64,000 nt of DNA from a virus, in IMG/VR virus record IMGVR_UViG_3300028653_000016, positions 6,395 to 70,394 of that record; one strand, written 5' to 3'. The translations under genes were made by a program, and so were the position numbers. Of the stretch, positions 43,037 to 60,902 are shown in pieces. The first letter of the stretch is position 1. Every line of letters begins with the position of its first letter. The notes under the pieces were generated by a model. It searched no databases, was not told the origin of the DNA, and was given only the letters and a program-made list of their open reading frames with translations.

Positions 43037-45457
43037 TCAGTATAAGGGAAAATTTCCTGGATTTACAATAGTGATAAGTACTCCAAAAGCTAACGTAGAA
43101 GCATCCCAAAGTACAGGGATAGGCAATTGAGTTTCAGTATACTGCAATCTATAAGCTGTTATTACTTCAGTTGGACCTGCCCATAGTGAGGCTAATGTAA
43201 GATGGGTATTATCTGCAATTAATTCTATTGTACCTAAATAAATTCCATTTGGATCTGTAATCTGATCTCCAACTGAAAGGGATAAAAAGGATGTTCCACT
43301 ACCTGTAACTGTAGCACTTCCATTTGTAAATGTTACAAATCCTGCTAAGGGTGTAGCCCCCTGTAAGGCATTGACTATCTTAATAGGACTACCTGTATCA
43401 AATATAGCTTGTAGGGTACTTGTTGTTGGAACAAGCATAGTCCAGTATCCTAATGCTCCATTTGTAGTATAGGTACTAGGTGGTACAAGAAGACCTGGAG
43501 TAATACCACCAGCAGGAACAACTACTGTTCCAGCACTAGGGAATGCAACAGTTGTGCCAGAAGGACCATAAGTTAATGCTCTACCATGAAGAACACTGTT
43601 AGAGGCAAAGGTAATGGATGTTCCAGCAAGAATTGTTCCATTAACAGTGTCATTAGCCCCAAAGGTAAATGTTGTACCAGTTACAAAGTAAACATTATCC
43701 GCTGTAGCACCACCTGTTAGAACTACGTTACAATTAGCTCCCATTGTAAGAGCAGTACCAAAGAGGAACACATACGTTCCTGCACCATTAAGAGTGAGAT
43801 TCCCTGTTGCTGTCCATGTTCCTGCTGCAATTGCACTATAAACACCTGGAGTTGCAACAAACCCATTTAAATCAGTAGAAGAAATATCTGTCCCAGGACC
43901 CATTGCTTGAAGAGCTATTGCTGCTGTGGTAGCATCTGTATGAGCTTGAGCTGCAGCTGAATCTCCACTATGCAATATACCTGTATATGTACCTGGAGGA
44001 AAACCAGTAATTGAAGTAGGAGCTACATTACCTAAATCTCCAGTTAAAATAGTAAACCCCGTATTTGCAACTCCAGTATCACCTAAGACGGCATAGGTAG
44101 CTGCTGTACCAAGGAGAGAAGGGGAAGCACTTGGAGTAATATTTTCTACGACTAAAGTATTATCAATAAAAGGAGAAGAAGTACGAAATACAGATTCTTC
44201 AATCGTATCTCCTGCATACATACCTGCTGTTGAAGAAACAATTAGATGAGTGCTATCTTCCACATCTGTAATAGTAAAAGGAATAGAAGTAGTTGTATCT
44301 AAGGCAGAACCAGGAACCCAACCATTTTCTACCCTAGTAACAGTAAAAGAAATAGGGACGGTTGTATCTAATGCATTACCAGTAATCCACCCAGCTGTAT
44401 TACCAACAACTAAATGAGTACCATCTATTACTGAAGCAATAGTTGTAGTATTAGATCCTTGTACAATAGTATCCCCAGGACTCATGCCTGTAGTAGAGGA
44501 AACAATTAAATGTGTTAAATCTACTGTAGAAGTTACTTCTAAATGAGTACCATCTATAACATTTATAATTGTAGTTGTATTAAGTGTTTGAGTTATTGGC
44601 CCATCTTGAGTTGTAGTTAAAACAAAATTATTTAAATCTCGTATATTTGTAATAACTGGGGGAACACCTGTAAAAGCTTGCACTGTTAAAATAACAGCTT
44701 CATTCGTTCCACCAACTAAAGAAGCCAAATACAAATTCATTAAAATCCAACGATAATCCACATACTGCATACTATTGGGCTTGGGGAAATTAAACATCAC
44801 ACCAAAATTTTGGGCTAAATTCTCATCCACGCACATATCAACATAATTATCTGTCTGAGTAAGAAAATTAGCATAAAATACTTGATCCAACTGATTACCA
44901 TACATATCCTCAACAAGCCATAAATTTGTATTACGTTGGGATACAGGTTTAAGAAGATCCCCCTTCCCATATACATGATAATCGGGCAAAGATTCCATTA
45001 AAGCTTCTGCTGAAGATTGCTGTACACTTTGGGGAATAGTCCAAGTCAATGTGGATGACCAATCTGATATAAAAGAACCTGTATGAGTTCTCACTCTTGC
45101 ATACCAAGTTTGAACTGTAGCATTAATACGAGCAGCAACAGGAACAGTGAGTCCTTTACGCACATTACCATTTTGAAAGGTAATTGGAGAAGGAAAACCG
45201 TATAGCCCAGATGAATTAAAAGTAACTAGATTTGGTGAATTGAATGTTGGAACAGTATCCAATTGTAAATCAAAATTTGCTGCAGCTAATGCAGGAGTAA
45301 TAAAAGCAGGATCAAAGCCAAACCAGAATGTGTAAACCCCATCCTGGGATGTTCTATAGAAACGTAAATCTATAGGAATACCCTGAGCAGCCGTTGTGGT
45401 TGCACCAATGTAAAAACTTCCTGATCCGTAGAAAATTCCTGATCCGTAAAAACTCAT
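43037..45457 (-). CDS. baseplate wedge (gpI-like) protein with inserted beta modules and a DUF3494 ice-binding-like domain
   Basis: L..NFG.MF...YR.IL......GGT.EAV...V.AFTG core; DUF3494 pattern at about 43515-44120. Confidence 0.7.
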   Translation of the reverse strand: MSFYGSGIFYGSGSFYIGATTTAAQGIPIDLRFYRTSQDGVYTFWFGFDPAFITPALAAANFDLQLDTVPTFNSPNLVTFNSSGLYGFPSPITFQNGNVRKGLTVPVAARINATVQTWYARVRTHTGSFISDWSSTLTWTIPQSVQQSSAEALMESLPDYHVYGKGDLLKPVSQRNTNLWLVEDMYGNQLDQVFYANFLTQTDNYVDMCVDENLAQNFGVMFNFPKPNSMQYVDYRWILMNLYLASLVGGTNEAVILTVQAFTGVPPVITNIRDLNNFVLTTTQDGPITQTLNTTTIINVIDGTHLEVTSTVDLTHLIVSSTTGMSPGDTIVQGSNTTTIASVIDGTHLVVGNTAGWITGNALDTTVPISFTVTRVENGWVPGSALDTTTSIPFTITDVEDSTHLIVSSTAGMYAGDTIEESVFRTSSPFIDNTLVVENITPSASPSLLGTAATYAVLGDTGVANTGFTILTGDLGNVAPTSITGFPPGTYTGILHSGDSAAAQAHTDATTAAIALQAMGPGTDISSTDLNGFVATPGVYSAIAAGTWTATGNLTLNGAGTYVFLFGTALTMGANCNVVLTGGATADNVYFVTGTTFTFGANDTVNGTILAGTSITFASNSVLHGRALTYGPSGTTVAFPSAGTVVVPAGGITPGLLVPPSTYTTNGALGYWTMLVPTTSTLQAIFDTGSPIKIVNALQGATPLAGFVTFTNGSATVTGSGTSFLSLSVGDQITDPNGIYLGTIELIADNTHLTLASLWAGPTEVITAYRLQYTETQLPIPVLWDASTLAFGVLITIVNPGNFPLY

Positions 45458-45470
45458 TGTTATTTACCTT

Positions 45471-47378
45471 TTATGATAACTTTTCAATTACAATATAAAT
45501 TGAATAAAATGATGTATTAAAAAATCCAGTGTTTGTAGTAGAATATCTAATTGGATTTCCTGAAGTCGATTCAATAACAAATGTTGAACTAGTAAAACCT
45601 AATACGGCTAAGGATAAGGCAGAAGTAGATGCGGTTTCCAATTGAGCATCATCAGTCCATTCCATATTTGCTGTTACAGTACCTGCTGTAACATCAGCTG
45701 TAGTAGTTGCTAAATAAACAGATGCTCTATATACTCCTGTTGAAGCAGGTGTAAAAAGTGTCACAGGACCTAAATCTGTATTTTGTCCAGGCAAAGAAAC
45801 ATGTGCTACAATGCTTGGTGAAACATTTCCATTAGATATAGCTGTAATCAGACCTTTACCATTAGTTGTTACAGTAGCATTTGTAAAAGTACCTACATCT
45901 GTATTTACAGTAGCTAATGTAGCAACTTCAACACCCCCAGAACCAGCAGGAACAATAATACCATTATCTGCTAAAGTTACAGAACCTGTAAGAGCAAGTA
46001 AACGACCAGTAACAGATGCCCCTGTATTAGCTGTAATACTTGCTGTAGCAATAATAGTTCCAACAAATGCTGTTGTGGTTCCTAATGTAGCTGAAGTTCC
46101 CATAAGCCAATAAACATTATTTGCACTTCCCCCATTTATAATAATAGCAGAGGAAGAACTAGCTGTAGTTAATGCACTACCAACTTGAAATACCCATTGA
46201 GCATTGGGATCTCCACCTGCATCTAAGGTAAGTGTCCCTGTTAATTGAGCAGTTGAAGTAAATTTATAAACTCCAGGAACTAGGGAGGGTACTACCCCTC
46301 CTGTACCCAAAACTTGACCTGTCAAATCCATTGTAAACGGAAGAGCAGCTAACGTTGTGTAAGCTGAAGAAGCATCCGTTTGCGCTTGAAGTGCAAAACT
46401 ATTTGCAATTTGTTCAGTACCTGAAAATGTACCAGGAGGAAATCCTACAATTGAAGTACCTGGATTTAAACCGAGATCTCCAGTCAATACTGAAGAACCT
46501 GTATTCGTTACTGTAGTGGCACCTAAAACTGCATATGTAGCTGATGTTAAAAGAACAGGATTAGAAGAACTAGTTGTCACGTCACCAGTTAAAGCAGTAA
46601 TACCTGTTCCACCTCCAGCAGCATTAATTGTAATAGCTTGACCAACTTGATTTAAAGTAATATTTGTACCAGAAACAAGTTGTACATTTGCTGTTAGATC
46701 AGGACTACTATCTGCATGAAGTGACTTTACAGCAGCTGTAGATGACACTGTAGCAATAGCAGAACCAGGACCTGTTGCTGTTACCTCACCTGTTAAAGCA
46801 GTTATACCAGATCCAGTAATACTATTTATCTGAGTTTGAATATCTGATGTAACTCCATGTACATACCCTAATTCCGTTACAGTAGTAGCTGAGGAAATCA
46901 AATACCCAGATGCATCAGTTACTGGAACAATAGAAGTATTCAATGGTTGAAGATTTGTTCTAGGAAGAATTACAGAACCATTAATACTAGAAGTGGTAAC
47001 AATACCAGAAGATAAAGAACCATCAGCATTTAAAGCAATCCCAACGGGAATTTGAAGTTCATTAATATCCTCTGCTGCAATTTCAGAACCTAGTCCAGTA
47101 TAAGATACTGAGACAACATTTCCATTTTGAGAAGCATCAAATGTAATGACCCCAGTAGCATAATCAACAAAGAATTGAACCCCTGTTGGAGAAGGAGTTA
47201 TAATTTCATTATAACCAGGAATAGTAACAGCGGGAGCTGGGCCTTGAGGAACTTCAACTAACCGAATTACATTTGGGGCAACTGTAAATACCCCTACGAT
47301 TCCTATAGTATGGCTTTCTCCAGAAATTGGAGATCCGATAAGTCTTTCATTTACTTTTGATTTATATGCTATGCTCAT
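45471..47378 (-). CDS. fibre/decoration protein with a DUF3494 ice-binding-like domain
   Basis: GITALTG.VT repeats; YAVLG.TTVTNTG.S..TGDLG...PGVYKF.S.A.LTGTLTLD.GGDPNAQWVFQ. Confidence 0.75.
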   Translation of the reverse strand: MSIAYKSKVNERLIGSPISGESHTIGIVGVFTVAPNVIRLVEVPQGPAPAVTIPGYNEIITPSPTGVQFFVDYATGVITFDASQNGNVVSVSYTGLGSEIAAEDINELQIPVGIALNADGSLSSGIVTTSSINGSVILPRTNLQPLNTSIVPVTDASGYLISSATTVTELGYVHGVTSDIQTQINSITGSGITALTGEVTATGPGSAIATVSSTAAVKSLHADSSPDLTANVQLVSGTNITLNQVGQAITINAAGGGTGITALTGDVTTSSSNPVLLTSATYAVLGATTVTNTGSSVLTGDLGLNPGTSIVGFPPGTFSGTEQIANSFALQAQTDASSAYTTLAALPFTMDLTGQVLGTGGVVPSLVPGVYKFTSTAQLTGTLTLDAGGDPNAQWVFQVGSALTTASSSSAIIINGGSANNVYWLMGTSATLGTTTAFVGTIIATASITANTGASVTGRLLALTGSVTLADNGIIVPAGSGGVEVATLATVNTDVGTFTNATVTTNGKGLITAISNGNVSPSIVAHVSLPGQNTDLGPVTLFTPASTGVYRASVYLATTTADVTAGTVTANMEWTDDAQLETASTSALSLAVLGFTSSTFVIESTSGNPIRYSTTNTGFFNTSFYSIYIVIEKLS

Positions 47379-47382: not shown

Positions 47383-49053
47383 TTATCCTTCTACTGTTAT
47401 AATGGGGGGATTTGCAATGGGATATGCTTCATTTCCAACAGAAATCTGTTGCCCAGGTGGGATTGTAGTTGTTACAACCCCTTCTGTACTCTGTAAAAGC
47501 AAACTACTCAAATCAACTTCTGAAACTCCAGGCACGTCTTGGGCAATGGCAACCAATTCACTTAGAACAAGATTTGCTCCAAGACCAAGAGAATTTATAT
47601 AAGTAGAAAGTGCTGTCTGCACATTTGTTACAACCGTAGCTGGCACATAACCTGGGACTATAAAAATACCCATACTTACTGAAATAAAGGCTTCAATAGC
47701 TTCCACCACAAGAATATCTGACCCTACAATATGATTTGAATTATTATCTAAAAGAGCTTGCAGAGTAGCAATCAAACTATCATAAGTATAATTAACTGTA
47801 ACCACTGTATTATTATCTGGTTTAAATCCAGAAAATGTTGCACTTCCTGCGCCAAAACCCGCTGTATTACCAACAACAATATGTGTGCTATCAATCACAG
47901 TAGTAATAGTAGTTGAGAAAGTTCCTTGTATGATTGCATTCCCAGGATTCATGCCACTTGTAGTATTCACAACCAAATGAGTACCATCAGTAACAAGTGT
48001 AATATTAAAATAGGTAGAAACATTGAAATTAATATAACTAGCTGCCTCAGTACTACCTGCAAACAGGAGATTCGGATTTAATACAAATTGATAATCTGTT
48101 CCAGCTACAAATGTGTAAGGAACCCCTCCAACAATACCTGTAACAGAGCCTACTGATAGAGCTGGCTGATTCAATAGAACATATTGCTGACTTCCAGTTG
48201 CTGAATAAGTAAAAGTTTCTGCTGTAATAGTGACAGGGAATTGACCACGAATATAAACATTAGTACTTCCACCATATTGATTACGTAATGGAGGATTAGG
48301 ATCATTAGGGCCAACGATGAGAGCTTGAATAACATTTGGATTTGTTTCCATAAGGGAAATAATTCCATTAGGAGTGCCAACATTATTACCTTCAAGCTTA
48401 ATCTGAATACGAGCAGCAAATTGAACGTTAGATTCAATATTCGTTCCACCACTGGTTACAGTTTGATTTGTTACAGCATCAATGCCAAGACCAGGGCCAA
48501 CAAGAGAGACAATAGTATTTGCTCCAACATTACCAACCGTTCCAATTGTTTGACTTATAATTCCTACAGTTTGCTCATAAAAGCCACTTACTGGATTGTA
48601 ATAAGCAGGAGCATTTGAAGGAGTAAAAGTTACTGTAGCTGTTGTCGCAAAGGAAACTGCAGGTGCTGCTGAGGTAGACAAAGTAGAAACAGTTGTACCT
48701 GAAGGAACAGTAATAATAGGAGAGGAAGTTGTATAATTACGAATTCTTAAAGTGATAAATCCGATTGACTGAGTACCTGGATTTCTTGTCATGCCATAGT
48801 TATTAGCAATGGCATCCATATCTGCTGGAAGAATAGTGGCAGCATTTGTAACAAAGGCTTGAAGATTTTGCGTATATTGAAGAGACGAATATACAGAAGG
48901 ATCTGTGCCATTCTGTGCCGATAATTGGTTAGCAACAGTTGATACAACTACATCCGAAACAACTGTTCCTGGAGTAGTTGCGATATCGGGCCTTGATATC
49001 TGCAAGAATGACAGCATTGATTGGACGATTTGTGAAAATGTTGGAAGAGCCAT
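47383..49053 (-). CDS. baseplate J/gp47-like protein
   Basis: G..GNVGANTI...VTN....SGG.N.ES..F..R; V..ALS.YINSLGLG..L.LSEL....DVPGV. Confidence 0.85.
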   Translation of the reverse strand: MALPTFSQIVQSMLSFLQISRPDIATTPGTVVSDVVVSTVANQLSAQNGTDPSVYSSLQYTQNLQAFVTNAATILPADMDAIANNYGMTRNPGTQSIGFITLRIRNYTTSSPIITVPSGTTVSTLSTSAAPAVSFATTATVTFTPSNAPAYYNPVSGFYEQTVGIISQTIGTVGNVGANTIVSLVGPGLGIDAVTNQTVTSGGTNIESNVQFAARIQIKLEGNNVGTPNGIISLMETNPNVIQALIVGPNDPNPPLRNQYGGSTNVYIRGQFPVTITAETFTYSATGSQQYVLLNQPALSVGSVTGIVGGVPYTFVAGTDYQFVLNPNLLFAGSTEAASYINFNVSTYFNITLVTDGTHLVVNTTSGMNPGNAIIQGTFSTTITTVIDSTHIVVGNTAGFGAGSATFSGFKPDNNTVVTVNYTYDSLIATLQALLDNNSNHIVGSDILVVEAIEAFISVSMGIFIVPGYVPATVVTNVQTALSTYINSLGLGANLVLSELVAIAQDVPGVSEVDLSSLLLQSTEGVVTTTIPPGQQISVGNEAYPIANPPIITVEG

Positions 49054-49063
49054 AATGATATCC

Positions 49064-49540
49064 TTAGATGTTACCGATTTGAACGCCTGTCGTAATTTCT
49101 TGCCCACTAGCTGCAATAACTGTGAGAAGGGCTGCTATATTTGTTTCACTCTGAAGTGATACATTTAACGAATAGAGTGTTTGTACAATCTCTGCTGGAT
49201 TAGATCTATTTTGTGTAAGTAAATATAAAATTTGCAATGCCTGAGTAATTTGCTGTTGCACAGTTCCTGAAATTGTTGCTGGATTCATTCTGTTACCAAT
49301 TAATGACTGAAGTGTAGTACCATAGAGAGGGAACAATGTAATAGGCGTTCCTTGTTCAGTTAACAGAATCTTCTGAACATCTTGAACTGTCTCTTGTAAT
49401 CCAGATACCAGAACAAAATCATTATTCGAACCAATAACTAAGTCATTAGTCTGCTCTCCAAAAAACGGACCAGCAACCTGCTGAGGTGGATACTCAGGTT
49501 GACCTGGGACTGGAATTGTTATTAATTGCAAATCGCTCAT
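49064..49540 (-). CDS. gp25-like baseplate/sheath initiator
   Basis: DL...DF.LVSG.....Q.....LLTE.G.....P.YG..L..LIG. Confidence 0.75.
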   Translation of the reverse strand: MSDLQLITIPVPGQPEYPPQQVAGPFFGEQTNDLVIGSNNDFVLVSGLQETVQDVQKILLTEQGTPITLFPLYGTTLQSLIGNRMNPATISGTVQQQITQALQILYLLTQNRSNPAEIVQTLYSLNVSLQSETNIAALLTVIAASGQEITTGVQIGNI

Positions 49541-50042: not shown

Positions 50043-51089
50043 TTAATTACCCGCCGTTACAGTAAGAGAAGCTGTAGATATCTTGCTTGTCAAAGAAGGT
50101 GGGGCAATTGGTGACTGTGCTAAAAAGGCTGCTCCTAATGCTCCAAGTTGTGATTGTATTACAGGACTTCCACCTTGAAATCCAGAGAGTGCTGTAAAAA
50201 ACGATTGAATGGCATTTATAAATAACCAATAAATCGGGTCCGTAGATGTATTTGAAATTGTTAAATCATTCAATCGAGCTACACCTTGGCCAACTCCACC
50301 ATTTAAAGAAATTGTAGTCCCAGTTAAAGAAATATCTCCAAGGGGGTCCATCTTTAAAGAAGCCAAACTTACCCCAGTCCCAAAAGTAGTATTATTAAGA
50401 GATATATTTCCAATTGTATCCATTGTTAACTGACAAATAGGAGTTTCTACAGTTGTAGCCCCAGTGGGAACAGATAATTGTGTAGCTACTTGGAGCCCTT
50501 CCGTAAGACCTGTTATAGAATTTGTTGTAAAATTGAAAGTACTTTGTATATTGTCAGTTCCTGTGTTTGACTCGAAGTAACCATTATCTGCTGAAAGAAG
50601 TACCTCATGATCATCATCGGAACCTGTGCCACCTACTACCAAACGCTCACCAGTGGACCCAGATTCAATTTGAGCAGTCCCATTGTTGCCAAGGTATAGG
50701 TGAGCCCCAAAACCTGGAATCCCCTGCCCTGTAGGTGAAGTAGGGCCTGTTGCTTCCATATAGATTTCACCATCTTGAATAGGATTGGCATGATTATGAA
50801 TATCTTGAGCAGCATTTCCTACTGATGGAATAAAACCTCTATACTGATCATTTGTAGATAAAAAGGTGTATGGTTCTCTTAGCACCATTAAAATATAAGA
50901 TCGATAAGCATCCAATTGCAACACTAAAACAAGACTACCTAGCAATGGAGCACTTTGATCCTTTAAGGCATTCCCAAGCTGCACCCCAACCAATTTTTGT
51001 CCATTAGGAATCTCAACCACTGAGTACTGCCTAGGGGTTACTGGATCTTTGGCTAAAATTTGAGCTTGAAAAATTCTATATTCTGACAT
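50043..51089 (-). CDS. baseplate central spike (gpV/gp5-like)
   Basis: N-terminal OB-like region, beta-helix-like C-terminus, VARLND motif; synteny. Confidence 0.6.
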   Translation of the reverse strand: MSEYRIFQAQILAKDPVTPRQYSVVEIPNGQKLVGVQLGNALKDQSAPLLGSLVLVLQLDAYRSYILMVLREPYTFLSTNDQYRGFIPSVGNAAQDIHNHANPIQDGEIYMEATGPTSPTGQGIPGFGAHLYLGNNGTAQIESGSTGERLVVGGTGSDDDHEVLLSADNGYFESNTGTDNIQSTFNFTTNSITGLTEGLQVATQLSVPTGATTVETPICQLTMDTIGNISLNNTTFGTGVSLASLKMDPLGDISLTGTTISLNGGVGQGVARLNDLTISNTSTDPIYWLFINAIQSFFTALSGFQGGSPVIQSQLGALGAAFLAQSPIAPPSLTSKISTASLTVTAGN

Positions 51090-51090
51090 G

Positions 51091-53489: not shown

Positions 53490-53987
53490 TTAGAACTTCT
53501 GTAATAGATTCGTAATATTTGCACTAGCTTTATTTAGTGGAATATTCAAAATATTCTGTAATCGACCAATTGCTCCTTCAATAACTCCATTATTCGTAGT
53601 AGAAATTGAAAAATCTTCAATGGCGAATTGCTGTCCAAATAGCAACTGAAAATTTATAGTATAAGTAAACTCATTTAAATGACTCGTAGATGCTTCAACA
53701 TCTAGAAGGGTGAGAAATCCTTGATAGAGTTGAGTTTTATAAAAGAGAGTACTCAATTTATTATTACTCTCAAACTGTTGCTTTAAGAACAAAAGTTCTT
53801 GATACGCTGTTTGACCTGCAGAAGCTCCAGTCATCACAAGCATCTCTGGAGAGTTGTACCAAATCTGGTACTGCACTCCTCCCTGTGTTGGGAGTGTTCC
53901 ATAACTGACTGCCTTCGTGATATGCATCTGACGAGGATTCACATAGAAGTTAAGATTATTAAGACGAACAGGATAAATATTAGCCAT
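53490..53987 (-). CDS. tail tube initiator-like protein
   Basis: FYVNP..M.I.K......T.GG...W; YQGF....F.Y.I.F; lies downstream of TMP. Confidence 0.6.
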   Translation of the reverse strand: MANIYPVRLNNLNFYVNPRQMHITKAVSYGTLPTQGGVQYQIWYNSPEMLVMTGASAGQTAYQELLFLKQQFESNNKLSTLFYKTQLYQGFLTLLDVEASTSHLNEFTYTINFQLLFGQQFAIEDFSISTTNNGVIEGAIGRLQNILNIPLNKASANITNLLQKF

Positions 53988-54000: not shown

Positions 54001-55755
54001 TTACCAAGAACCACTACTTCCATTAGTAGGGTGTGACCCATTGGGTTTATGCATAATATTCTTATCTACCCATTTTGGAATTCCTTTAAATACATTGAGA
54101 GGATTTGCTTTTCCCAAGGATTCAAATATTTTATTTATCTTATCATCTACCATTGTCCAGAAATTAGTAAATACATTTTCAAGACGTTTAATTGGATCAA
54201 CAATCTGAACCAATGTGTTAATACCTTCAGCCATGGCAACTTGAGGAGTCTTGCCTTCTAAAGCTTGAAATCTATTACCAAACTCTTTATTAGAAATACT
54301 CCCATTCATCATCTGTTGGGTAAGCTCAAAAAACTTGGGTGTATCTTGTAAACGAAGTCCAGGTAAAAATTGTGTTTGTAATTGATTAGCTGCAAACATG
54401 CGCTGTGTAGGATCTTTAAATTGGCTTCCAACTTTAGTTAAGAAACTACCCATTAAACCAAAAACTCCACTACCCTTATTGCCTAGCATACCACCTTCAC
54501 CGAACAAATCACCAGGACCAGGAATCTTACCACCATGAGTAAAAGCAAACATACCTGCAATTTGAGGAAGAGAAAGATTAGCTCCAGCTTGAACAACAGC
54601 ACCACCAATGCGTAATTTTTCAGCTTCATTATTTCCAGCAATTGCATTCAAATACCCTGAGATATTATAAAGTGTATTTGAAGCTACTGCTCCATCATTT
54701 GTAATGTTACGTAGGGCCTTAGCCATGTCCATCTGAGCCTTAATAGCATCAAGCTGTGTTACCTTTAGGCGTTCTGCATTTACACGAGAGGAAACGAACG
54801 TATCAGTTATATCTTTCTGAGACATTCCTAAATTTTTAGTAGCGTCAGTAAAAAGCTCCATTTCCTTAGAGGCATCTGGAAGAATATTAGCAAAGAGTCC
54901 TAAATTGCCACGAATAGCCCCAAATCCACCTGCAGCTTGTGACTGATCTATCATCGTTCTAGATCCAGCCATCTGTCCTATAATAGCCCGTTGTTGCTCA
55001 GCCGAAAGTGCTTGCCCAAGACTACCAAAAGGACCAAGAGCACTTCCCCCATTAAAAAGATTTGTTGCAAAATTAAGTCCTGCTCCAGCCCCTGATCCAA
55101 GTCGAAGCCCAGCACCAGCCAGTTGCGCTCCTGTAGCAGTAAAAGCTGCTTTGGTATTCAACATCTCCATTGCAGCACCAATAATAGCTGCTGGAATAGC
55201 AACTGCAGGATTGGCTAAAAGAGTACCGACACCTGCTACAGTGCTTCCTACAGGTCCTCCTACATTAACTAGGGCATCTCTGGCACCTCTTACTAAACCA
55301 CCAAACCCTGTAGCTTGCTTTTCTTTACGTGCAGTTTCTTCTGTAATTCTCTGTGAATTTCTTGCTGAATCTGTTATAATTTTAGTCTTGGCTTTTTCAA
55401 ATTCCTCCGTAGCCATCCTTTTTTCTTTTAAAGCGGCTATGCTGGCATCCCTTTCAGCTTCAATACCCTTTATGGCTTCAGAACTATATCGTTTTAAGGC
55501 TACTTCATTCTCTTTATGCTTATCCCCCATGTAACGCCAAAATCGTTCTTGGGCCGCCATTCCATCATGGGAAGCTTTCTCCCAATTCACTCCAAAGTTC
55601 TTCATTAACCCATCTAGAACCTTCTGCAAATCAGCAAAAGCTCGTTCAGCAGGTTGAGTATTAACAGAAACATTAGCACTCACATTTTGAGACTGTGACT
55701 GTGTAAAAGGGTTAGGTGGCAAAGGTTGCCCAGAAGGGCCTAATAGATCTGGCAA
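54001..55755 (-). CDS. tape measure protein
   Basis: Ala/Gly-rich helical protein downstream of the tail chaperones. Confidence 0.75.
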   Translation of the reverse strand: MPDLLGPSGQPLPPNPFTQSQSQNVSANVSVNTQPAERAFADLQKVLDGLMKNFGVNWEKASHDGMAAQERFWRYMGDKHKENEVALKRYSSEAIKGIEAERDASIAALKEKRMATEEFEKAKTKIITDSARNSQRITEETARKEKQATGFGGLVRGARDALVNVGGPVGSTVAGVGTLLANPAVAIPAAIIGAAMEMLNTKAAFTATGAQLAGAGLRLGSGAGAGLNFATNLFNGGSALGPFGSLGQALSAEQQRAIIGQMAGSRTMIDQSQAAGGFGAIRGNLGLFANILPDASKEMELFTDATKNLGMSQKDITDTFVSSRVNAERLKVTQLDAIKAQMDMAKALRNITNDGAVASNTLYNISGYLNAIAGNNEAEKLRIGGAVVQAGANLSLPQIAGMFAFTHGGKIPGPGDLFGEGGMLGNKGSGVFGLMGSFLTKVGSQFKDPTQRMFAANQLQTQFLPGLRLQDTPKFFELTQQMMNGSISNKEFGNRFQALEGKTPQVAMAEGINTLVQIVDPIKRLENVFTNFWTMVDDKINKIFESLGKANPLNVFKGIPKWVDKNIMHKPNGSHPTNGSSGSW

Positions 55756-55793: not shown

Positions 55794-56174
55794 CTACACT
55801 ATCAAATTGTGATTATTTTTAAGTCTTTCTCTTGTACTCTCAAAAGAATTATGCCGAATCTCTTTTCTCAAATTTTCGATATCCTGGCAAACCTTATTCA
55901 AATCAAGATCTATAAGAATTCTATCATACAAAGCAGAACGAGAATCACTAGTTAAATTATCCCGCATTTTATGCAATTCTGTTTCAAGCTTCTGTAAAAA
56001 TACCATGTCTGTAGAGCCGTTTTTATAATAGTATTTCTTACTATAACCGATATGACTCAATGCTTTCTCAAAGGTAGTCTTGAAAAAACCAAACTTTTTG
56101 AGAACCCAATCAATCAGGTTAAGCACTTGGAAGCCTATGGCCGCTACGAAGAAGAGTACAATTAAGATTTCCAT
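55794..56174 (-). CDS. membrane-anchored moron-like protein
   Basis: N-terminal TM helix; own sigma70 promoter inside the tail operon. Confidence 0.65.
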   Translation of the reverse strand: MEILIVLFFVAAIGFQVLNLIDWVLKKFGFFKTTFEKALSHIGYSKKYYYKNGSTDMVFLQKLETELHKMRDNLTSDSRSALYDRILIDLDLNKVCQDIENLRKEIRHNSFESTRERLKNNHNLIV

Positions 56175-56396: not shown

Positions 56397-56753
56397 TCAA
56401 GCTTTCTCAATTCTTGTCATATTTTCCCATCGTTTAGGATCATCCATCATAGCCTGAAGCTCTTCAGGAGTATATTTCCCTTTTAGATCACGAGCCATAT
56501 TTTCAAACATCGTATCTTTTGTACTCTCAGTCTTTTCAACTTTCTTACCATCAAATATTGTCTCAGCAGCAGCAGGATTTAAGAAGCGACATAATAATTT
56601 TGTACTCTCAAAATCTTCCTCTTGATCCTTAAAGTGATTAGTTAAAATCCATGTATACTGTGCAGGTGATAGGTTAGAAATTTCTTGGGAGAAGGGAGAT
56701 ACATGGAGGGATTTTGCAACTACCCAAAGATCACGGAAGGGGATTAACTCGGC
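56397..56753 (-). CDS. tail assembly chaperone, -1 frameshift extension (gpGT-like)
   Basis: 119-codon open -1 frame (AELIPFRDLWVVAK...RIEKA*) with no start of its own, entered at A AAA AAG. Confidence 0.8.
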   Translation of the reverse strand, partial: AELIPFRDLWVVAKSLHVSPFSQEISNLSPAQYTWILTNHFKDQEEDFESTKLLCRFLNPAAAETIFDGKKVEKTESTKDTMFENMARDLKGKYTPEELQAMMDDPKRWENMTRIEKA

Positions 56754-57097
56754 TTTTTTTTTAACTCAATCAGGGTCGAATCTTGAGTTTGTGCCATTAT
56801 ATCATAACAATTATAAATCTCATTGAAAATAGGAGCCTGAAGATTTTGAATGAACTTAGTAGCATCTTCAAGACTAATTTTCTCACCATTAACAGAATCT
56901 AATGCATAGATTAATAGTGCCTGTTGAAGAACAACTGCACGAAGGGCTGGATCTTGACCCAATGGAGAAGTAGGCAACTGGCTCAATGCACTCTGTTGCT
57001 GAAGTACACTTAAAGTATGCATCTTTACTTTCAAACCATTTACTACTTCAAATTCTTTTTCAACTCGATTCAAACTACTAAAGCTTGTCAAATCCAT
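56744..57097 (-). CDS. tail assembly chaperone (gpG-like)
   Basis: Between tube and TMP; ends ELKKKPS on an A9 slippery run. Confidence 0.8.
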   Translation of the reverse strand: MDLTSFSSLNRVEKEFEVVNGLKVKMHTLSVLQQQSALSQLPTSPLGQDPALRAVVLQQALLIYALDSVNGEKISLEDATKFIQNLQAPIFNEIYNCYDIMAQTQDSTLIELKKKPS

Positions 57098-57114
57098 GTT
57101 ATGACTCCTTGTAC

Positions 57115-58008
57115 TTATCTTTTATAATTGTTATCTTGCCACCAGAGTGGCTGCAAGTTCTTATAATTAAAGCATTCTAAACGATCTTTTTCTTTACTTA
57201 AATCAAAATGATGCTTTGCTTTACAATGATCTATTTGCCATACTTTTTTCTTCTTATTACATCTTCCACGATTACCCCAATTCATATCTGGAAGCCATAA
57301 AGACTCAATATACTTTTTAAACTCGTCAGAAGTTAACCCAACATAATGAAGAAAAAAAGGAGTAGTTTTATTTTTTATGATAGCTTGATACAAATCTGCT
57401 TCAAATTTATGTCTATAATACTCATGTTGTTTATAATTTTCAGAGGTTACAGAACTTTTTGTATTTTGGGCTTGCTCTCTATAGGTTGCCCATCTAACAT
57501 TTCCAGGTTCATAGTTACCTGTCTGATTAGGAAATCTATCTAAAGTTGTCTCTTTTACACCAAATTCAATTACATGTTTATTATATGATTCACCAACATC
57601 TTTGTAGAATCCTTCAAATGTTTGCCACTCAGGACATACAGTTATATCAGAACCTCCATAATCTTCATATCTTGAATTATTAGGATTAAGGCAACGCTGC
57701 ATCATATGTTGCCAAATACCATTTAATCTGGTATGAGACATGCCATGAGTTCTGGTCAAATCCCCTAATCTATTTATTGAGGCACATCCACAATTTTTCG
57801 AGGAGCCATCTAGCAAATGAAAGGCATTAACTAAACGAATTGTTCCATCTTTAGCACATTTACATGTCCAATAATCGGTCTTATTATTTTCATGCCCTGC
57901 ATAATCAATAATTTCCCAATCTCCAAATTTAGAAATGTTTCCAAATCTTTTCAAAATTGAAAAATTTTCACGCTTAACTAAAACTCTATCTGTCTTTAAT
58001 TTTCTCAT
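57115..58008 (-). CDS. free-standing HNH-type homing endonuclease, paralog of 32254-33123
   Basis: THGMS.TR...IW..M.QRC...YGG..I.VC.EW; LDR.....GNYEPGN.RWAT; W.IDH...FDL...CFNY.NLQP; upstream TTGTAA-N17-TATACT at 58027-58055. Confidence 0.82.
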   Translation of the reverse strand: MRKLKTDRVLVKRENFSILKRFGNISKFGDWEIIDYAGHENNKTDYWTCKCAKDGTIRLVNAFHLLDGSSKNCGCASINRLGDLTRTHGMSHTRLNGIWQHMMQRCLNPNNSRYEDYGGSDITVCPEWQTFEGFYKDVGESYNKHVIEFGVKETTLDRFPNQTGNYEPGNVRWATYREQAQNTKSSVTSENYKQHEYYRHKFEADLYQAIIKNKTTPFFLHYVGLTSDEFKKYIESLWLPDMNWGNRGRCNKKKKVWQIDHCKAKHHFDLSKEKDRLECFNYKNLQPLWWQDNNYKR

Positions 58009-58063: not shown

Positions 58064-58594
58064 TTATGCGGGTACACCAACAACAGTAGAAGAAGTGTAA
58101 CCAAAATCTACCCCTTCTAAAATTCTGAGATCCCCACCATTTATATTATAACTAGCTGATACAGAGTGGCACCAAACTCCTGTGAAGATTGTAGATTTTG
58201 TAGGCACACCAGAACCTGTGGGCGAAATTTCGACCTTCAAAATCCCAAAACTAGCATTATTATTCACGATGTCATCACCAGAAATTCCAAGAATTTCTAA
58301 AGCATCCGAAACATACAGCATAACTCGATCTGCATGAAGAGAATACTCATCAACAGTTCTTGGTAAACGCTCAACAGGTTTCCCCTGTTGATCAGAATCA
58401 AGCTCAAATCGAAAGTCTGTGTTTCGACGCTGAGTTTGCGTAAAAGATTGAACAGCCCCAATCTTGGCTGACTGCTGAGCCAATGAAAGAAGAGCTGCAG
58501 GATTACTAAGTGTAGTTGCATCCAAATTTTTTGGAAGTAGGAATAGTGAAACACTAGTTGACAGCCTTGCATTAGTATTACCGAGTTCAGCCAT
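58064..58594 (-). CDS. tail tube protein
   Basis: Immediately downstream of sheath; IGAVQSF...FEL...VE..P pattern. Confidence 0.75.
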   Translation of the reverse strand: MAELGNTNARLSTSVSLFLLPKNLDATTLSNPAALLSLAQQSAKIGAVQSFTQTQRRNTDFRFELDSDQQGKPVERLPRTVDEYSLHADRVMLYVSDALEILGISGDDIVNNNASFGILKVEISPTGSGVPTKSTIFTGVWCHSVSASYNINGGDLRILEGVDFGYTSSTVVGVPA

Positions 58595-58637
58595 TGTGAT
58601 TCTCCTTAAGGTTCTTTAAAATCTTTTCTTTATCAAA

Positions 58638-60902
58638 TTACTGAAGGTTAAGCCCAAGTGTTATGAAAATTATATCTGCCTCTAAGACTGGCACGATACC
58701 TACTGAAACGTCCAGCCTCGTCGCATCATTAGCATCAACAGTTACAACAGGCTGTGTAAATGAAACAATAATATTGCTCTGTTGAATAGTTGAAAGAATC
58801 GCAGAAACTACTGTAGCTACCTGACTTGGCGTATTTGCTAAAAGTTTCTGACCGATGAAAATTGGGTCAAGAAGTCCACGCAATGTTTGAGTGGTGTAAT
58901 CAGCAATCTGAGTCACCTGGAACAACTGCGAAAGTACTGTAGAAGGATCTGTTGTAGTCCCAAACAAAACTTTAGGAACAGACTGAAGTGTGTCAATCAC
59001 ACAAACACCCTCATTAATAAGCAGGGATTTTTCTGCCTGTGTTAAAGTATTTGTAATTGAGGCAAATCCAGAAATAACTTCACGAGTCATTGGCTGTGCC
59101 ACATCATAAGCTGGATTACAGCGAACACCAGCCAAGGCTGCTGCAACAAATTGACTGCCAACCGCTGTTGCAGTTGTTGCCTGTCCAATAAACATTGTAT
59201 TCTTAACAGTTGAAGAATTCAAAAGAACAATACGATTGTCAGCTACTGCTGCAGCATATTGAGTCATATCTGAATCTGAATAAGAGGCAACCGTTTCATC
59301 AAAACCAACAATGGCTGTTCTTTCTAGTTTATTAATAGTAGAACTTGCAGTATCTACATGCTGCTTAATTGCTGACAGAAGCTGTGCATTCGAAGCTCCT
59401 TCCAAGGAAACTACAATACTAATATTCTGTGTAGAAAGAAGCTTATTCAAAGCAGCTTGAACTTTAGCAATAGGTGATCCACCGTCAAATGGACTTTCCT
59501 GGCACACACAAACTTCTGGGGCACCATTTTGGAATGCCAAACTTGCTCCAAGTGAAATAGAATTAGAAACGCTAACTGGACCATAATCAGTTACAACTGC
59601 TGCTAATGTAAAATAAAACTTAGGTGTATAATCGGCTGCAACTTTAGCATACTCATAAGTTACATAATAAGTAACACCTGCAAGAGGGGCTTGAGGAGTT
59701 TCTACAAATGAACCTGCAGTAAAACCAAGAATTGCATTAGCTGTTCCTGTGCCAATGTAAAGTGAGGAATCTGAAACATCAGTCGTAGAAATTATCAAAG
59801 AACCAGGAGTAGAAGATCCTGCAACAACAGTTACCGTATTTGTATCTAGTGTCACAGCGGCTGTAAGAGCAAACACTCGCCCACTAACAGTTGCACCTGT
59901 AGTTAAAGTTGCACTTGCTTGGGCAAGAATAGTTCCCTTAAAAGATGAGCCAGTTCCTAATGTAGCAGAACTTCCAACTTGCCAATAAACGTTACCTGCA
60001 TTTCCACTGTTAATCATAACGACTGAAGAGGCAGCAGCGGTTACTAGGGTAGAACCAATCTGGAATACCCATTGAGCATTGGGATTGCCCTGACCATCTA
60101 ATGTAAGAGTACCCGTAAGAGCTGCTGAAGAAGAGAATTTATAAACTCCTGCAGTGAGAGTACGTCCACCTAAATCGCCTGTTAGAACTGTTGCACCAGT
60201 AAGAGCTGCAAAAGCAGTGTATGCAGCATTAGCGTCAGCTAAAGCTGTTGCAGCAGCTGCATCACCATTATGTGTAGTGCCAACAACGGTTGGTGTTCCT
60301 GTAATAGAACCTGCTGGGCTGAGAGCAACATTTCCTGTAAGAGTTGTGCTTCCTGTATTTGTAATTGTGCTACTTGCAATAACAGCATATGTAGAAGCTG
60401 AAGCAAGAGCAGGTACAGTAACCTCAGTGGCAGAAGCCACTGCAGCAATTGAATGCCCTGTAAAATAAGCATTCATTGTGGCAGCAACTTCAGCAGCTGT
60501 GGTTTCAGTTGTAAATGGAATTGTTTGCACTGCACCATTTTTAATGGCTAATTGGAAATTTAATCCGTTAAGACTTGCATAAGGATCAAAGGTTGTACCA
60601 GTAAGTTGAGCAGCAAGGGAAAGCCATTCTACATTACCACTATTCAATGTAAAGTCAACACCATTGTAATAGACAATAAAATTTGAATCCTGGATATTTC
60701 CATCGATAGAAACTGCAGCAGGAGATAATGTATCTGTAGATCCGCTACCACGAAGAATTGCAACGTTAGATGCAGTATTCGTTAGCTTTCCTGTTCCTAT
60801 CAGAGCAGGTATGCGTACACCCTGGCCGCTTGTAGGCTCAGCGTTAGCCTGAACAGTTGTGAACACACCTGGGGTTACAAATTGGCCATTAACTTGAGGC
60901 AT
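58638..60902 (-). CDS. contractile tail sheath with an inserted DUF3494 ice-binding-like domain
   Basis: TPGVF..., LAFQNGA, ER.AIVG, FIGQK, V.I.PV...I.I.L; DUF3494 at about 59825-60415. Confidence 0.88.
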   Translation of the reverse strand: MPQVNGQFVTPGVFTTVQANAEPTSGQGVRIPALIGTGKLTNTASNVAILRGSGSTDTLSPAAVSIDGNIQDSNFIVYYNGVDFTLNSGNVEWLSLAAQLTGTTFDPYASLNGLNFQLAIKNGAVQTIPFTTETTAAEVAATMNAYFTGHSIAAVASATEVTVPALASASTYAVIASSTITNTGSTTLTGNVALSPAGSITGTPTVVGTTHNGDAAAATALADANAAYTAFAALTGATVLTGDLGGRTLTAGVYKFSSSAALTGTLTLDGQGNPNAQWVFQIGSTLVTAAASSVVMINSGNAGNVYWQVGSSATLGTGSSFKGTILAQASATLTTGATVSGRVFALTAAVTLDTNTVTVVAGSSTPGSLIISTTDVSDSSLYIGTGTANAILGFTAGSFVETPQAPLAGVTYYVTYEYAKVAADYTPKFYFTLAAVVTDYGPVSVSNSISLGASLAFQNGAPEVCVCQESPFDGGSPIAKVQAALNKLLSTQNISIVVSLEGASNAQLLSAIKQHVDTASSTINKLERTAIVGFDETVASYSDSDMTQYAAAVADNRIVLLNSSTVKNTMFIGQATTATAVGSQFVAAALAGVRCNPAYDVAQPMTREVISGFASITNTLTQAEKSLLINEGVCVIDTLQSVPKVLFGTTTDPSTVLSQLFQVTQIADYTTQTLRGLLDPIFIGQKLLANTPSQVATVVSAILSTIQQSNIIVSFTQPVVTVDANDATRLDVSVGIVPVLEADIIFITLGLNLQ

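What the first reader, a model, noticed from the sequence alone, without database searches (positions are those of the whole stretch)
43515..60415. Ice-binding-like (DUF3494) domains inserted into three virion proteins, including the tail sheath
Seen: complete ~200 aa domains (YAV.....TNTG...TG......A..DA..AY...L..GVY.F.S.A.LTGTLTLD.G.PNAQWVFQ.GS.L.TA..S.V...G.A.NVYW..G.SATLGT...F.GTI.A..S.T..TGA.V.GR..A.T..VTL..N) at about 59825-60415 (sheath), 45950-46555 (fibre) and, more diverged, 43515-44120 (baseplate wedge). Established: DUF3494 beta-solenoids are the most widespread microbial ice-binding proteins, and sheaths are built from many subunits. Inference: the virion would display a dense array of these domains along the tail, giving an ice-adsorbing or freeze-protected particle, or reusing the flat Thr/Ser/Ala face to bind mineral or glycan surfaces. 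I am not aware of this being described for a phage sheath.
Basis: partly seen in the sequence, partly recalled or inferred. Interest (0 to 1): 0.86.

Follow-up and report, generated by a model that had tools for sequence, protein, structure and literature searches.

The report
Ice-binding-like domains on a phage tail
A large soil phage carries complete ice-binding-type protein domains spliced into its contractile tail sheath and two other tail proteins, so the virus particle probably wears a dense coat of a surface-sticking module whose target (ice or something else) is still untested.

Summary
Three minus-strand ORFs each hold one complete Pfam PF11999 (DUF3494, ice-binding-like) domain far above the curated cut-off: the tail sheath (58638-60902), a fibre-like protein (45471-47378) and a second distal tail protein (43037-45457).

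The sheath identity rests on PHROG, a PDB profile hit and a Pfam-typed homologue.

The domain is an optional cassette:
- 14 of 73 sheath homologues carry it and 35 are minimal.
- It sits at a length-variable site.
- It lies in a recombinant block, 73-95% nucleotide identity against about 41-71% in the flanks.
- It is under purifying selection, dN/dS 0.13-0.33.
- It is shuffled among sheath, tail and head-proximal proteins of related ~190-kb phages.

Ice binding itself is untested. PF11999 is also abundant in soils generally. I put about 0.4 on ice and 0.37 on another surface ligand.

No held paper describes an ice-binding-like domain in a sheath. It is a new variant of virion decoration.

The parts
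58638..60902 (-). Tail sheath gene (754 aa). Layout: conserved N-terminal part (about residues 1-95), small domain (about 96-165), PF11999 domain, conserved sheath core (about 380-754).
   Evidence: phrog_2839, E 5.7e-37. Alignment A1. Family profile hits PDB 5li2 sheath, E 3.2e-7. Homologue P0157 carries PF04984+PF16075+PF17482.
59829..60383 (-). Complete ice-binding-like (PF11999/DUF3494) domain inserted in the sheath, residues 174-358.
   Evidence: Pfam 190.6 bits, profile 1-208 of 208. PDB phmmer best hits 6eio (E 3e-39), 5uyt, 7bwx, all named antifreeze or ice-binding proteins. dN/dS 0.13-0.33 against 8 orthologous sheath domains. T+S+A+G 58.5%, charged residues 4.6%.
59913..60632 (-). 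Recombinant block (sheath residues about 91-330) shared at high nucleotide identity with sheaths whose core is only about 52% identical.
   Evidence: 30-codon bins against L020: 46-55% nt identity for residues 1-90, 73-95% for 91-330, 41-71% afterwards. Protein level: core 52% against IBP 89% identical to P0005.
45471..47378 (-). Fibre-like tail protein (635 aa) directly downstream of baseplate J. It has two near-identical short 'ITALTG-x-VT' repeats before the domain and a C-terminal domain of about 160 aa after it.
   Evidence: Translation. Its family has the precomputed architecture PF26696-[PF11999]-PF27067; of the 37 rows that carry PF26696 or PF27067, among the 40 best rows (the query's own row included), 13 carry PF11999 and 24 do not.
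45957..46529 (-). PF11999 domain of the fibre-like protein, residues 284-474 (type A, same clade as the sheath copy).
   Evidence: Pfam 179.7 bits. 50% identical over 233 aa to the sheath copy, E 7e-43. Tree.
43037..45457 (-). Second distal tail protein (806 aa): N-terminal part of about 290 aa, several copies of a small ~55-65 aa module, a PF11999 domain, and a C-terminal part resembling minor tail proteins.
   Evidence: Translation. phrog_9922 'minor tail protein' at residues 706-772, E 6e-8. tblastn to annotated minor tail or tail fibre genes of 9 enterobacterial phage records. ESM Atlas lead to Tail_P2_I at 0.84, a lead only.
43571..44089 (-). PF11999 domain of the 806-aa protein, residues 457-629 (type B, profile 1-195).
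   Evidence: Pfam 110.5 bits. It lies in a phage-only clade of 22 rows (support 99*) that mixes domains from tail, head-proximal and sheath proteins.
44147..44566 (-). Repeats of a second mobile ~55-65 aa module (contains a D-G-T-H-L motif). It has no Pfam match.
   Evidence: blastp all-against-all. No Pfam hit at E<=1. The same module hits 21 of 73 sheath homologues.
47383..49116 (-). Baseplate J-like wedge protein (577 aa). It carries one copy of the small module at residues about 362-443 (window 47788-48033).
   Evidence: PF04865, 64.1 bits, and phrog_6, E 4e-31. Module match.
49064..49540 (-). gp25-like baseplate wedge / sheath initiator.
   Evidence: phrog_120, E 8.5e-11. PF10934 at 30.6 bits, below its cut-off of 32.9.
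61055..62092 (-). Protein upstream of the sheath (345 aa) with the small module (residues 214-284, window 61241-61453) and a C-terminal He_PIG Ig-like domain.
   Evidence: PF05345, 34.3 bits. Module match.
62094..62822 (-). 242-aa protein with one copy of the small module (residues 87-145, window 62388-62564).
   Evidence: No PHROG or significant Pfam family.
39498..42526 (-). Two further distal tail genes: a tail-collar fibre protein (39498-41372) and a beta-propeller protein (41384-42526). They show that the virion carries several kinds of binding-type modules.
   Evidence: PF07484, 54.3 bits; PF24684 Vgb_lyase family, E 1.4e-103. Tail-fibre PHROGs.

Best explanation
The window is the replication and tail part of a roughly 190-kb contractile-tailed phage of peat-type soils. 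Its sheath subunit has a complete DUF3494 beta-solenoid domain spliced into the length-variable site between the N-terminal part and the conserved core. That site most likely forms the outer surface of the tail (inferred). The same kind of domain sits in two baseplate-distal tail proteins, and in relatives also in a protein encoded next to the major head protein.

Every sheath subunit carries one copy, so the assembled tail would display the domain many times over, giving strong avidity for a flat, repetitive surface. I commit to ice as the single most likely ligand. On that reading the particle adsorbs to ice faces in freezing peat or permafrost, and/or inhibits local ice recrystallisation. 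This would protect the long contractile tail through freeze-thaw cycles and keep virions at the ice-water interfaces where cells are concentrated.

Shown: domain identity, sheath identity, cassette behaviour, purifying selection, all-or-none occurrence per genome, and occurrence in peat and permafrost assemblies.

Inferred: outward display, copy number, ligand and benefit.
For: 1. Domain identity. PF11999 is at 110-191 bits against a 28.7-bit cut-off in three virion proteins. All 25 PDB sequences matched at E<=0.01 are antifreeze, ice-binding or DUF3494 chains; the best is 6eio at E 3e-39, covering chain residues 19-227 of 237, that is the whole fold including the helix.

2. Variable site. Among 73 sheath-core homologues, 35 are minimal (<=575 aa, no insert), 14 carry the domain, and 21 carry a different ~60-aa module (7 of these also carry the IBP domain). 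All inserts fall between the same conserved flanks. Such tolerance fits a surface site that is not in lattice contact.

3. Selection and mobility. dN/dS is 0.13-0.33. There is a recombinant block of 73-95% nt identity inside a gene that is otherwise 41-71% identical. The sheath-core tree needs at least 4 changes of state, and the window's clade of 4 is nested among 12 domain-less rows. More distant sheaths, P0082 (PF17482 41.1 bits) and P0105, carry the domain at other positions.

4. Particle-level trait. 15 of 24 related virus records have PF11999, always in the sheath. All 9 of those that are >=25 kb have 2-5 matches in several ORFs. 0 of 3 records >=25 kb without a sheath copy have any match. 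A domain on the sheath side and near the head is poorly placed for recognising one specific receptor.

5. Habitat. Contigs >=99% identical to this sheath gene were laid from two peat runs and one permafrost run of three studies.

6. Composition. The domain is 58.5% T+S+A+G and 4.6% charged, against 39.9% and 10.7% in the rest of the sheath. The family as a whole shares this character.
Against: - No ice assay and no structural model were possible; structure prediction is off.
- The solved DUF3494 structures come almost only from cold organisms, so the PDB hit list is biased.
- The NCBIfam equivalog for ice-binding protein (NF045625, cut-off 400 bits) is not met: 84.6, 64.1 and 32.4 bits.
- PF11999 is reported among abundant Pfams over 1,512 soil metagenomes worldwide (PMC11237643, passage). 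DUF3494 is described as also 'substrate-binding' (PMC12337378, passages).
- The possible source runs and one further holder are rhizosphere metagenomes.
- The same phages carry lectin-like, Ig-like and beta-propeller modules on neighbouring virion proteins, which fits general glycan adhesion equally well.
- At least 221 stretches of IMG/VR viral contigs encode relatives of the domain. Their habitats were not examined.
- The all-or-none pattern rests on few independent lineages.
Confidence: 0.4

Rival explanations
1. Non-ice surface adhesion. The beta-solenoid is used as a general adsorption module for polysaccharide (host capsule or EPS, plant or Sphagnum polymers), humic or mineral surfaces. 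It would keep virions in the matrix where hosts live, in the way Ig-like Hoc domains are proposed to hold T4 in mucus (recalled).
For: - DUF3494 is described as occurring in substrate-binding as well as ice-binding proteins (PMC12337378). PF11999 is abundant across soils in general (PMC11237643).
- Co-resident binding-type modules: tail collar, He_PIG Ig and beta-propeller in the window; TIG + Laminin_G_3 lectin-like protein next to the head-proximal PF11999 protein in the complete relative G019.
- One unrelated viral ORF joins PF11999 to a chitobiase C-terminal domain, and another joins it to fn3.
- Rhizosphere runs hold the gene.
Against: - No carbohydrate-binding family matches the domain itself.
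- The domain is poor in the aromatic and charged residues usual in sugar-binding faces: 5.6% F+W+Y and 4.6% charged.
- All characterised relatives found bind ice.
- Peat and permafrost occurrence.
Confidence: 0.37
2. Specific receptor-binding domain. The domain evolved in fibres as a host-recognition module, and the sheath copy is a by-product of cassette shuffling with little function of its own.
For: - In two proteins the domain sits in baseplate-distal tail proteins.
- In another phage (L129) a PF11999 ORF directly follows baseplate J.
- Domains are exchanged between fibre-type and sheath proteins.
Against: - The sheath copy is under purifying selection, dN/dS 0.13-0.33.
- It is kept in 14 of 73 cluster representatives in two core clades.
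- It was itself the unit of a recombination event.
- Both tail proteins keep a separate C-terminal domain after the PF11999 domain.
Confidence: 0.1
3. Purely structural decoration. The solenoid contacts neighbouring subunits and stiffens or stabilises the extended sheath, without an external ligand.
For: Extra sheath domains are common in large myoviruses. The 1,204-aa sheath of Tunturiibacter phage Tunturi_5 and the 917-1,244-aa homologues P0158-P0163 have long inserts; of the four scanned (Tunturi_5, P0158-P0160), none has a Pfam family in the insert.
Against: It does not explain why the same domain is placed on fibre, baseplate and head-proximal proteins of the same genomes and on none of them in others. 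Nor does it explain why a ~60-aa unrelated module can take the same site.
Confidence: 0.08
4. Artefact: a chimeric assembly, or a tailocin or contractile injection system of a cell rather than a phage.
For: The record is a linear fragment, 37% complete by CheckV.
Against: - The same architecture occurs in 13 other cluster representatives and in 15 IMG/VR records.
- An independent peat contig bridges both junctions.
- A 192,085-base relative with terminal repeats encodes a major head protein and a head protease upstream of the sheath.
- The window holds DNA polymerase A, a DnaB-like helicase and RecA.
Confidence: 0.01

Closest known systems
Microbial DUF3494 ice-binding proteins with solved structures (PDB 6eio, 5uyt, 7bwx, 6bg8; organism names recalled, not from a call)
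   Same: Same Pfam family over the whole domain. phmmer E 3e-39 to 2.8e-25, alignment over nearly the full chain including the long helix. Thr/Ser/Ala/Gly-rich and poor in charge. Bacterial relatives often have 2-4 tandem domains, and related phage tail proteins have two.
   Different: Those are secreted or cell-anchored proteins. Here the domain is an internal insert in structural virion proteins without a signal peptide context. The phage domains form two clades with no cellular sequence among the 31 cellular representatives sampled. Activity is unknown.
Tail sheath proteins with surface-exposed insertion domains (T4 gp18, phi812-type sheath 5li2)
   Same: The conserved C-terminal core matches 5li2 and phrog_2839. 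Extra domains are nested in the N-terminal third, as I recall for gp18 domains I and II (recalled, not tested).
   Different: The inserted domain belongs to a family known for binding ice. It is an exchangeable cassette shared with fibre and baseplate proteins. No sheath among the 227 matching GenBank phage records aligns over this part.
Virion decoration by adhesion domains (T4 Hoc Ig-like domains, 'adherence to mucus' model; recalled)
   Same: Many copies of a non-essential binding module on the outside of the particle, variable between relatives, and proposed to concentrate virions where hosts are.
   Different: Different fold (beta-solenoid, not Ig). Different carrier (sheath, fibres and baseplate rather than capsid). 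The proposed ligand is ice or another soil surface.
PF11999 genes reported as viral 'auxiliary metabolic genes' in Arctic surface waters (PMC11515562; abstract and passages read)
   Same: PF11999 on viral contigs. Three such genes were reported there.
   Different: They were read as host cryoprotection genes. Nothing in the passages read places them in virion proteins. Here the domain is part of the sheath and tail proteins themselves.
Bacterial ice adhesins (DUF3494 plus Ig-like tether domains; described in PMC9957290 and PMC11645318, passages read)
   Same: An ice-binding-type domain held on a large surface structure so that the whole body sticks to ice. Multi-domain architectures are generated by domain shuffling.
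   Different: The 'body' here is a virus particle, and the tether is the tail lattice.

Membership tests
Pfam PF11999 / DUF3494 ice-binding-like domain | Match to the family HMM above the curated gathering score | tested here: met
   190.6, 179.7 and 110.5 bits against a cut-off of 28.7. Confirmed on the six-frame scan of the record.
Pfam PF11999 / DUF3494 ice-binding-like domain | Complete domain (all coils plus the long helix), not a fragment | tested here: met
   Profile positions 1-208 and 1-207 of 208 for the sheath and fibre copies; 1-195 for the third. Alignment to 6eio residues 19-227 of 237.
Pfam PF11999 / DUF3494 ice-binding-like domain | Beta-solenoid with flanking alpha-helix in three dimensions | not testable with these tools
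Functional ice-binding proteins | Thermal hysteresis, ice-recrystallisation inhibition or ice shaping | not testable with these tools
   Needs bench assays.
NCBIfam NF045625 IBP_CFB (equivalog 'ice-binding protein') | Whole-protein score at or above 400 bits | tested here: not met
   84.6 (sheath), 64.1 and 32.4 bits. These proteins are not members of that narrow equivalog.
Phage tail sheath | Sheath C-terminal domain PF17482 above its cut-off | tested here: not met
   18.3 bits against a cut-off of 26.9 in this protein. It is met in the more distant domain-bearing sheath P0082 (41.1 bits). Homologue P0157 carries it precomputed.
Phage tail sheath | Homology to annotated or solved sheaths over the conserved core | tested here: met
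   phrog_2839, E 5.7e-37. 227 phage records matched by tblastn; the rows listed are annotated tail sheath except one unannotated record and one named only gp178. Family profile against PDB 5li2, E 3.2e-7.
Phage tail sheath | Position in a contractile-tail gene module | tested here: met
   Downstream on the same strand: gp25-like protein, baseplate J, fibre-type proteins. In the complete relative, the major head protein and protease lie upstream. The presumed tube gene (58064-58594) has no family match.
Outward-displayed virion decoration (Hoc-like logic) | Domain lies on the particle surface and is dispensable for assembly | tested here: inconclusive
   Dispensability is supported: 35 of 73 homologues lack any insert, and close relatives (69-78% core identity) lack the domain. 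Surface location is inferred only.

The most novel reading that the evidence does not exclude
The virion is itself an ice-binding particle, the first virus whose structural proteins carry antifreeze-type domains. Many copies on the sheath, plus copies on fibres, baseplate and (in relatives) a head-proximal protein, give it high-avidity adsorption to ice. That would let it survive freeze-thaw and hunt hosts on the two-dimensional ice-water interface in frozen peat and permafrost. The trait spreads between phages as a recombining cassette.
Probability: 0.4. Interest if true: 0.85.

Novelty: new variant of a known kind. Interest (0 to 1): 0.7.

Why it matters
If the domain binds ice, this would be a structural cold adaptation of a virus particle. 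That differs from a host-helping gene, which is how viral PF11999 genes have been read so far (PMC11515562).

It would bear on three things:
- How phages persist and stay infective in seasonally frozen and permafrost soils.
- A natural model of multivalent ice-binding display.
- A ready scaffold for ice-affinity purification or cryoprotective particles.

If the ligand is something else, the finding still shows two things. The outer site of a contractile sheath is an exchange slot for the same binding cassettes that fibres use. And DUF3494 has a non-ice role in soil. Both outcomes can be tested directly with one recombinant domain.

Tried and rejected
**Structure.** There is therefore no model, no fold search and no mapping of the flat face or of outward display. 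I did not try another route to a fold.

**Cultured phages.**
- tblastn against 50,697 phage records gave no match for the sheath domain alone or for the 635-aa protein.
- For the 806-aa protein, 9 records matched, all over its C-terminal 8-11% only.
- For the whole sheath, 227 records matched, all over the core only.
- BLAST's low-complexity filter is on and the domain is Thr/Ser/Ala-rich, so weak relatives may have been masked.
- The Arctic-tundra phage Tunturi_5, the best sheath hit, has no PF11999 in its 308,711 bases. That search's control rang nowhere.

**Family names.** The precomputed families PF26696 and PF27067 are not in the local Pfam, so I cannot say what they are.

**Unnamed proteins.** The small ~60-aa module and the ORFs 58064-58594, 56744-57097, 55794-56174, 54001-55755, 53490-53987, 51091-53472 and 50043-51119 gave no family. 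Tube and tape measure are therefore not identified, and I give no tail length or exact sheath copy number.

**Ice-binding residues.** I looked for a paper giving them for the closest solved relative (listing only). I did not pursue it, because without a model the mapping would be guesswork.

**Sequencing runs.** X11, an RNA library (share 0.19), holds two 100%-identical pieces of the sheath gene (58981-59248 and 60546-60744). DNA can be present in such a library, so this does not show transcription. Stretches without cover in single runs (table 2) mean nothing.

**Neighbours of other viral PF11999 ORFs.** Of the 10 neighbouring ORFs tested beside PF11999 ORFs in 6 other viral contigs, 1 is a clear baseplate J, 1 is a weak 'tail protein', 2 matched PHROGs of unknown function and 6 had no PHROG. 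I do not claim that those genes are all structural.

**Rows dropped.**
- Core tree: 36 of the 38 sheath rows were used. P0033 and P0035, partial proteins, were left out.
- Domain tree: 31 of 174 cellular or other domains were kept after greedy clustering at 60% identity.

**Supplements.** Supplementary files of papers are closed. The lists of viral PF11999 genes in PMC11515562 may bear on whether any of them is a tail gene.

Full report
**What is there**

All long ORFs of the window lie on the minus strand. The left 39 kb holds replication genes: DNA polymerase A fused to a uracil-DNA-glycosylase domain, a DnaB-like helicase, RecA and other helicases. From 64000 down to about 39500 lies a contractile-tail module, in this order:
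- two small structural proteins (62094-62822 and 61055-62092)
- the sheath (58638-60902)
- a 176-aa ORF with no family match
- an HNH endonuclease
- several unnamed ORFs
- a gp25-like protein (49064-49540)
- baseplate J (47383-49116)
- a 635-aa fibre-like protein (45471-47378)
- an 806-aa tail protein (43037-45457)
- a 157-aa ORF (42544-43017)
- a beta-propeller protein
- a tail-collar fibre

The window is bases 6395-70394 of a linear IMG/VR virus record of 70,394 bases that CheckV rates 37% complete. Relatives reach 175-192 kb, one of them with terminal repeats and rated 100% complete.

**Check of the observation**

Pfam PF11999 (Ice_binding, DUF3494) matches three proteins far above its 28.7-bit cut-off:

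| Protein | Residues | Profile | Bits |
|---|---|---|---|
| Sheath | 174-358 | 1-208 of 208 | 190.6 |
| 635-aa protein | 284-474 | 1-207 | 179.7 |
| 806-aa protein | 457-629 | 1-195 | 110.5 |

The six-frame scan of the whole record finds these three and no more, with 0 of 14 control genomes ringing. The sheath and fibre copies are 50% identical. The third is 36-41% identical to them.

Against the Protein Data Bank, the sheath matches 25 distinct sequences at E<=0.01. All are antifreeze, ice-binding or DUF3494 chains. The best is 6eio at E 3e-39, over residues 19-227 of 237.

The carrier of the first domain is a sheath:
- phrog_2839, E 5.7e-37.
- 227 phage records matched by tblastn over the C-terminal half only.
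- A profile of insert-less relatives matches the solved sheath 5li2 at E 3.2e-7.
- Homologue P0157 carries PF04984, PF16075 and PF17482.
- PF17482 is below its cut-off in this protein itself: 18.3 against 26.9 bits.

**The domain is an optional, mobile cassette**

A search with the sheath core alone (residues 380-754) returned 73 cluster representatives.
- 14 carry the domain.
- 35 are minimal (<=575 aa, no insert).
- 21 carry a different module of about 55-65 aa; 7 of these also carry the ice-binding-like domain.

In alignment A1, all inserts fall between the same conserved flanks.

Relatives whose core is 69-78% identical to the window's sheath have no such domain. Sheaths whose core is only 50-54% identical have a domain 66-89% identical.

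On a tree of 36 sheath cores, the presence of the domain needs at least four changes. The window's clade of four is nested among 12 domain-less rows (quick search, SH-aLRT support).

Codon-aligned comparison with a clade-II sheath (L020) shows a mosaic. Nucleotide identity is 46-55% over residues 1-90, 73-95% over residues 91-330, and 41-71% afterwards. In the domain tree, the window's sheath domain groups (97*) with those of clade-II sheaths. The cassette, together with part of the preceding small domain, was therefore exchanged between divergent sheath genes.

Since then it has evolved under purifying selection. dN/dS is 0.13-0.33 in eight pairwise comparisons.

Two more distant sheaths carry the domain at other positions: P0082 (PF17482 41.1 bits) and P0105. 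I read this as independent insertions.

**The cassette moves among virion proteins and comes all-or-none**

In 24 related IMG/VR records found with the insert-less sheath profile, 15 have PF11999, in every case in the sheath.
- All nine of those that are at least 25 kb long have two to five matches in several ORFs.
- None of the three records of at least 25 kb without a sheath copy has any match. These include one rated 94% complete and one rated 79%.

In the complete 192,085-base relative, the four matches lie in the sheath, two tail proteins and a 309-aa protein. That protein's gene follows the major head protein and a TIG plus lectin-like (Laminin_G_3) protein. The window's contig ends about 3 kb upstream of the sheath, so a fourth copy may exist in this phage too.

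The domain tree has 72 rows: 41 phage domains and 31 of 174 other domains, kept after clustering. It shows two clades with no cellular sequence inside.
- 'Type B' has 22 rows (99*). It mixes domains from tail (13), head-proximal (6) and sheath (2) proteins, plus one 'other' row (P0109), a tail protein on the same 178,899-base contig as sheath P0028.
- 'Type A' has 21 rows plus P0082 (support 85, not starred). It holds sheath and fibre-type domains.

The fibre-like protein's family has the precomputed architecture PF26696-[PF11999]-PF27067. Of the 37 rows that carry one of the flanking families, among the 40 best rows, 13 have the domain and 24 lack it.

A second small module, with no Pfam match, is shared by the 806-aa protein, baseplate J and the two proteins upstream of the sheath. 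It also occurs in 21 of 73 sheath homologues. The outer slot of this sheath therefore draws on the same pool of modules as the fibres and baseplate.

**Where the phage occurs**

Words of the sheath gene are held by 20 runs of 20 studies. Two rhizosphere runs may be the source and are left out.

Among the others, a peat run (share 0.85), a permafrost run (0.81) and a second peat run (0.80) were laid. They gave pieces at least 99% identical. One 1,024-base contig covers 59513-60536, which is the whole domain and both junctions.

**Beyond this lineage**

With two peptide patterns, 221 stretches of IMG/VR contigs encode relatives of the domain. The best 79 loci were kept.
- 13 of the 79 are sheaths, all of this lineage.
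- 6 are other proteins of the lineage.
- 60 lie on other contigs, in ORFs of 228 to more than 2,500 aa.
- 10 of 10 ORFs sampled from those other contigs pass the Pfam cut-off.
- One directly follows a baseplate J gene.

PF11999 on viral contigs is therefore not rare. The sheath insertion, as far as this biased sample goes, is confined to one lineage plus the two distant sheaths.

**Literature**

| Search terms | Papers | Relevance |
|---|---|---|
| 'DUF3494' + 'phage' | 1 | unrelated to virions |
| 'ice-binding' + 'tail sheath' | 0 | none |
| 'ice-binding protein' + 'bacteriophage' | 31 | see below |
| 'DUF3494' | 43 | see below |
| 'PF11999' | 27 | see below |

- PMC11515562 reports three PF11999 genes on Arctic viral contigs and reads them as host-cryoprotection genes (abstract and passages read).
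- PMC11237643 lists PF11999 among abundant Pfams of 1,512 soil metagenomes (passage).
- PMC8286594 lists it as an adhesive domain that binds ice (passage).
- None of the passages read mentions a sheath or another virion protein.

**How it most likely works**

Shown:
- A complete, selected ice-binding-type domain in the sheath and two tail proteins.
- Cassette exchange.
- Particle-wide, all-or-none deployment.
- Occurrence in peat and permafrost assemblies.

Inferred:
- The variable site is the outer face of the sheath. This follows from its tolerance of inserts of 0 to more than 400 residues, and from what I recall of T4 gp18, where the nested N-terminal domains are external.
- The tail would then show one domain per subunit. 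Hexameric rings are assumed, with 138 subunits in T4 (recalled). The number here is unknown because the tape measure was not identified.

A domain on the flank of the tail and near the head cannot aim at one receptor. It suits adsorption of the whole particle to an extended surface.

I put 0.40 on ice. On that reading the domain gives freeze-thaw protection by local recrystallisation inhibition, and retention at ice-water interfaces. I put 0.37 on another surface (polysaccharide, humic or mineral), 0.10 on specific receptor binding, 0.08 on a purely structural role and 0.01 on artefact.

For ice:
- the homology to proven ice binders
- the habitats
- the low-charge, Thr/Ser/Ala/Gly-rich make-up

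Against:
- no assay and no model
- the failed NCBIfam equivalog
- the general abundance of the family in soils
- the rhizosphere holders
- the company of lectin-like, Ig-like and propeller modules

**Novelty and verdict**

The parts are known: the DUF3494 domain, sheaths with outer inserts, and decorated virions. The combination was not found in the held literature or in GenBank phages. That combination is an ice-binding-type domain as a recombining insert of the contractile sheath, shared with the fibre, baseplate and head-proximal proteins of the same particle. I rate it a new variant of a known kind, with interest 0.70.

Noticed in passing
window 44147-44566, 47788-48033, 61241-61453, 62388-62564: A second mobile module of about 55-65 aa (with a D-G-T-H-L motif and no Pfam match) is shared by four virion proteins of this phage. 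It is also inserted in 21 of 73 sheath homologues, sometimes next to the ice-binding-like domain. Its fold and ligand are unknown.
   Followed up: partly
L028 (G019:C1:88000-107000), ORFs 6330-8072 and 8238-9167: In the complete 192-kb relative, a 580-aa TIG + Laminin_G_3 (lectin-like) protein and a 309-aa PF11999 protein are encoded just downstream of the major head protein. They are possibly head or neck decoration. The corresponding region of the window's phage lies beyond the contig end.
   Followed up: partly
window 57115-58008 and 62824-63420: Two homing-type endonuclease genes sit inside the structural module: an HNH (phrog_374, E 3e-41) between the sheath-proximal genes and the unnamed tail ORFs, and a GIY-YIG/NUMOD3 upstream of the sheath. 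Such elements could help the cassette exchange seen in the sheath.
   Followed up: no
window 25844-27013: A phage-encoded membrane transporter of the BT1 (folate-biopterin transporter) / MFS family, PF03092 E 4e-38. This is unusual cargo for a phage.
   Followed up: no
window 41384-42526: A 380-aa beta-propeller protein matches the virginiamycin B lyase family at E 1.4e-103. It is encoded between the tail proteins and the tail-collar fibre. It may be a tail-associated binding or enzymatic module.
   Followed up: no
window 269-2827: DNA polymerase A is fused to an N-terminal uracil-DNA-glycosylase-superfamily domain and a 3'-5' exonuclease.
   Followed up: no
L105, L115, L117, L123, L135, L136 (other IMG/VR contigs): Very large ORFs (2,288 to more than 2,500 aa, several cut by contig ends) carry one to three PF11999-like domains. 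Only L105 was scanned against Pfam, and it showed no other family. What these giant proteins are was not examined.
   Followed up: no
L069 (Tunturiibacter phage Tunturi_5, record positions 269610-273224): The closest sheath among cultured phages is 1,204 aa long, about twice the minimal size. It has no Pfam family in its insert and no PF11999 anywhere in the genome. Large unexplained sheath inserts seem common in soil jumbo phages.
   Followed up: partly
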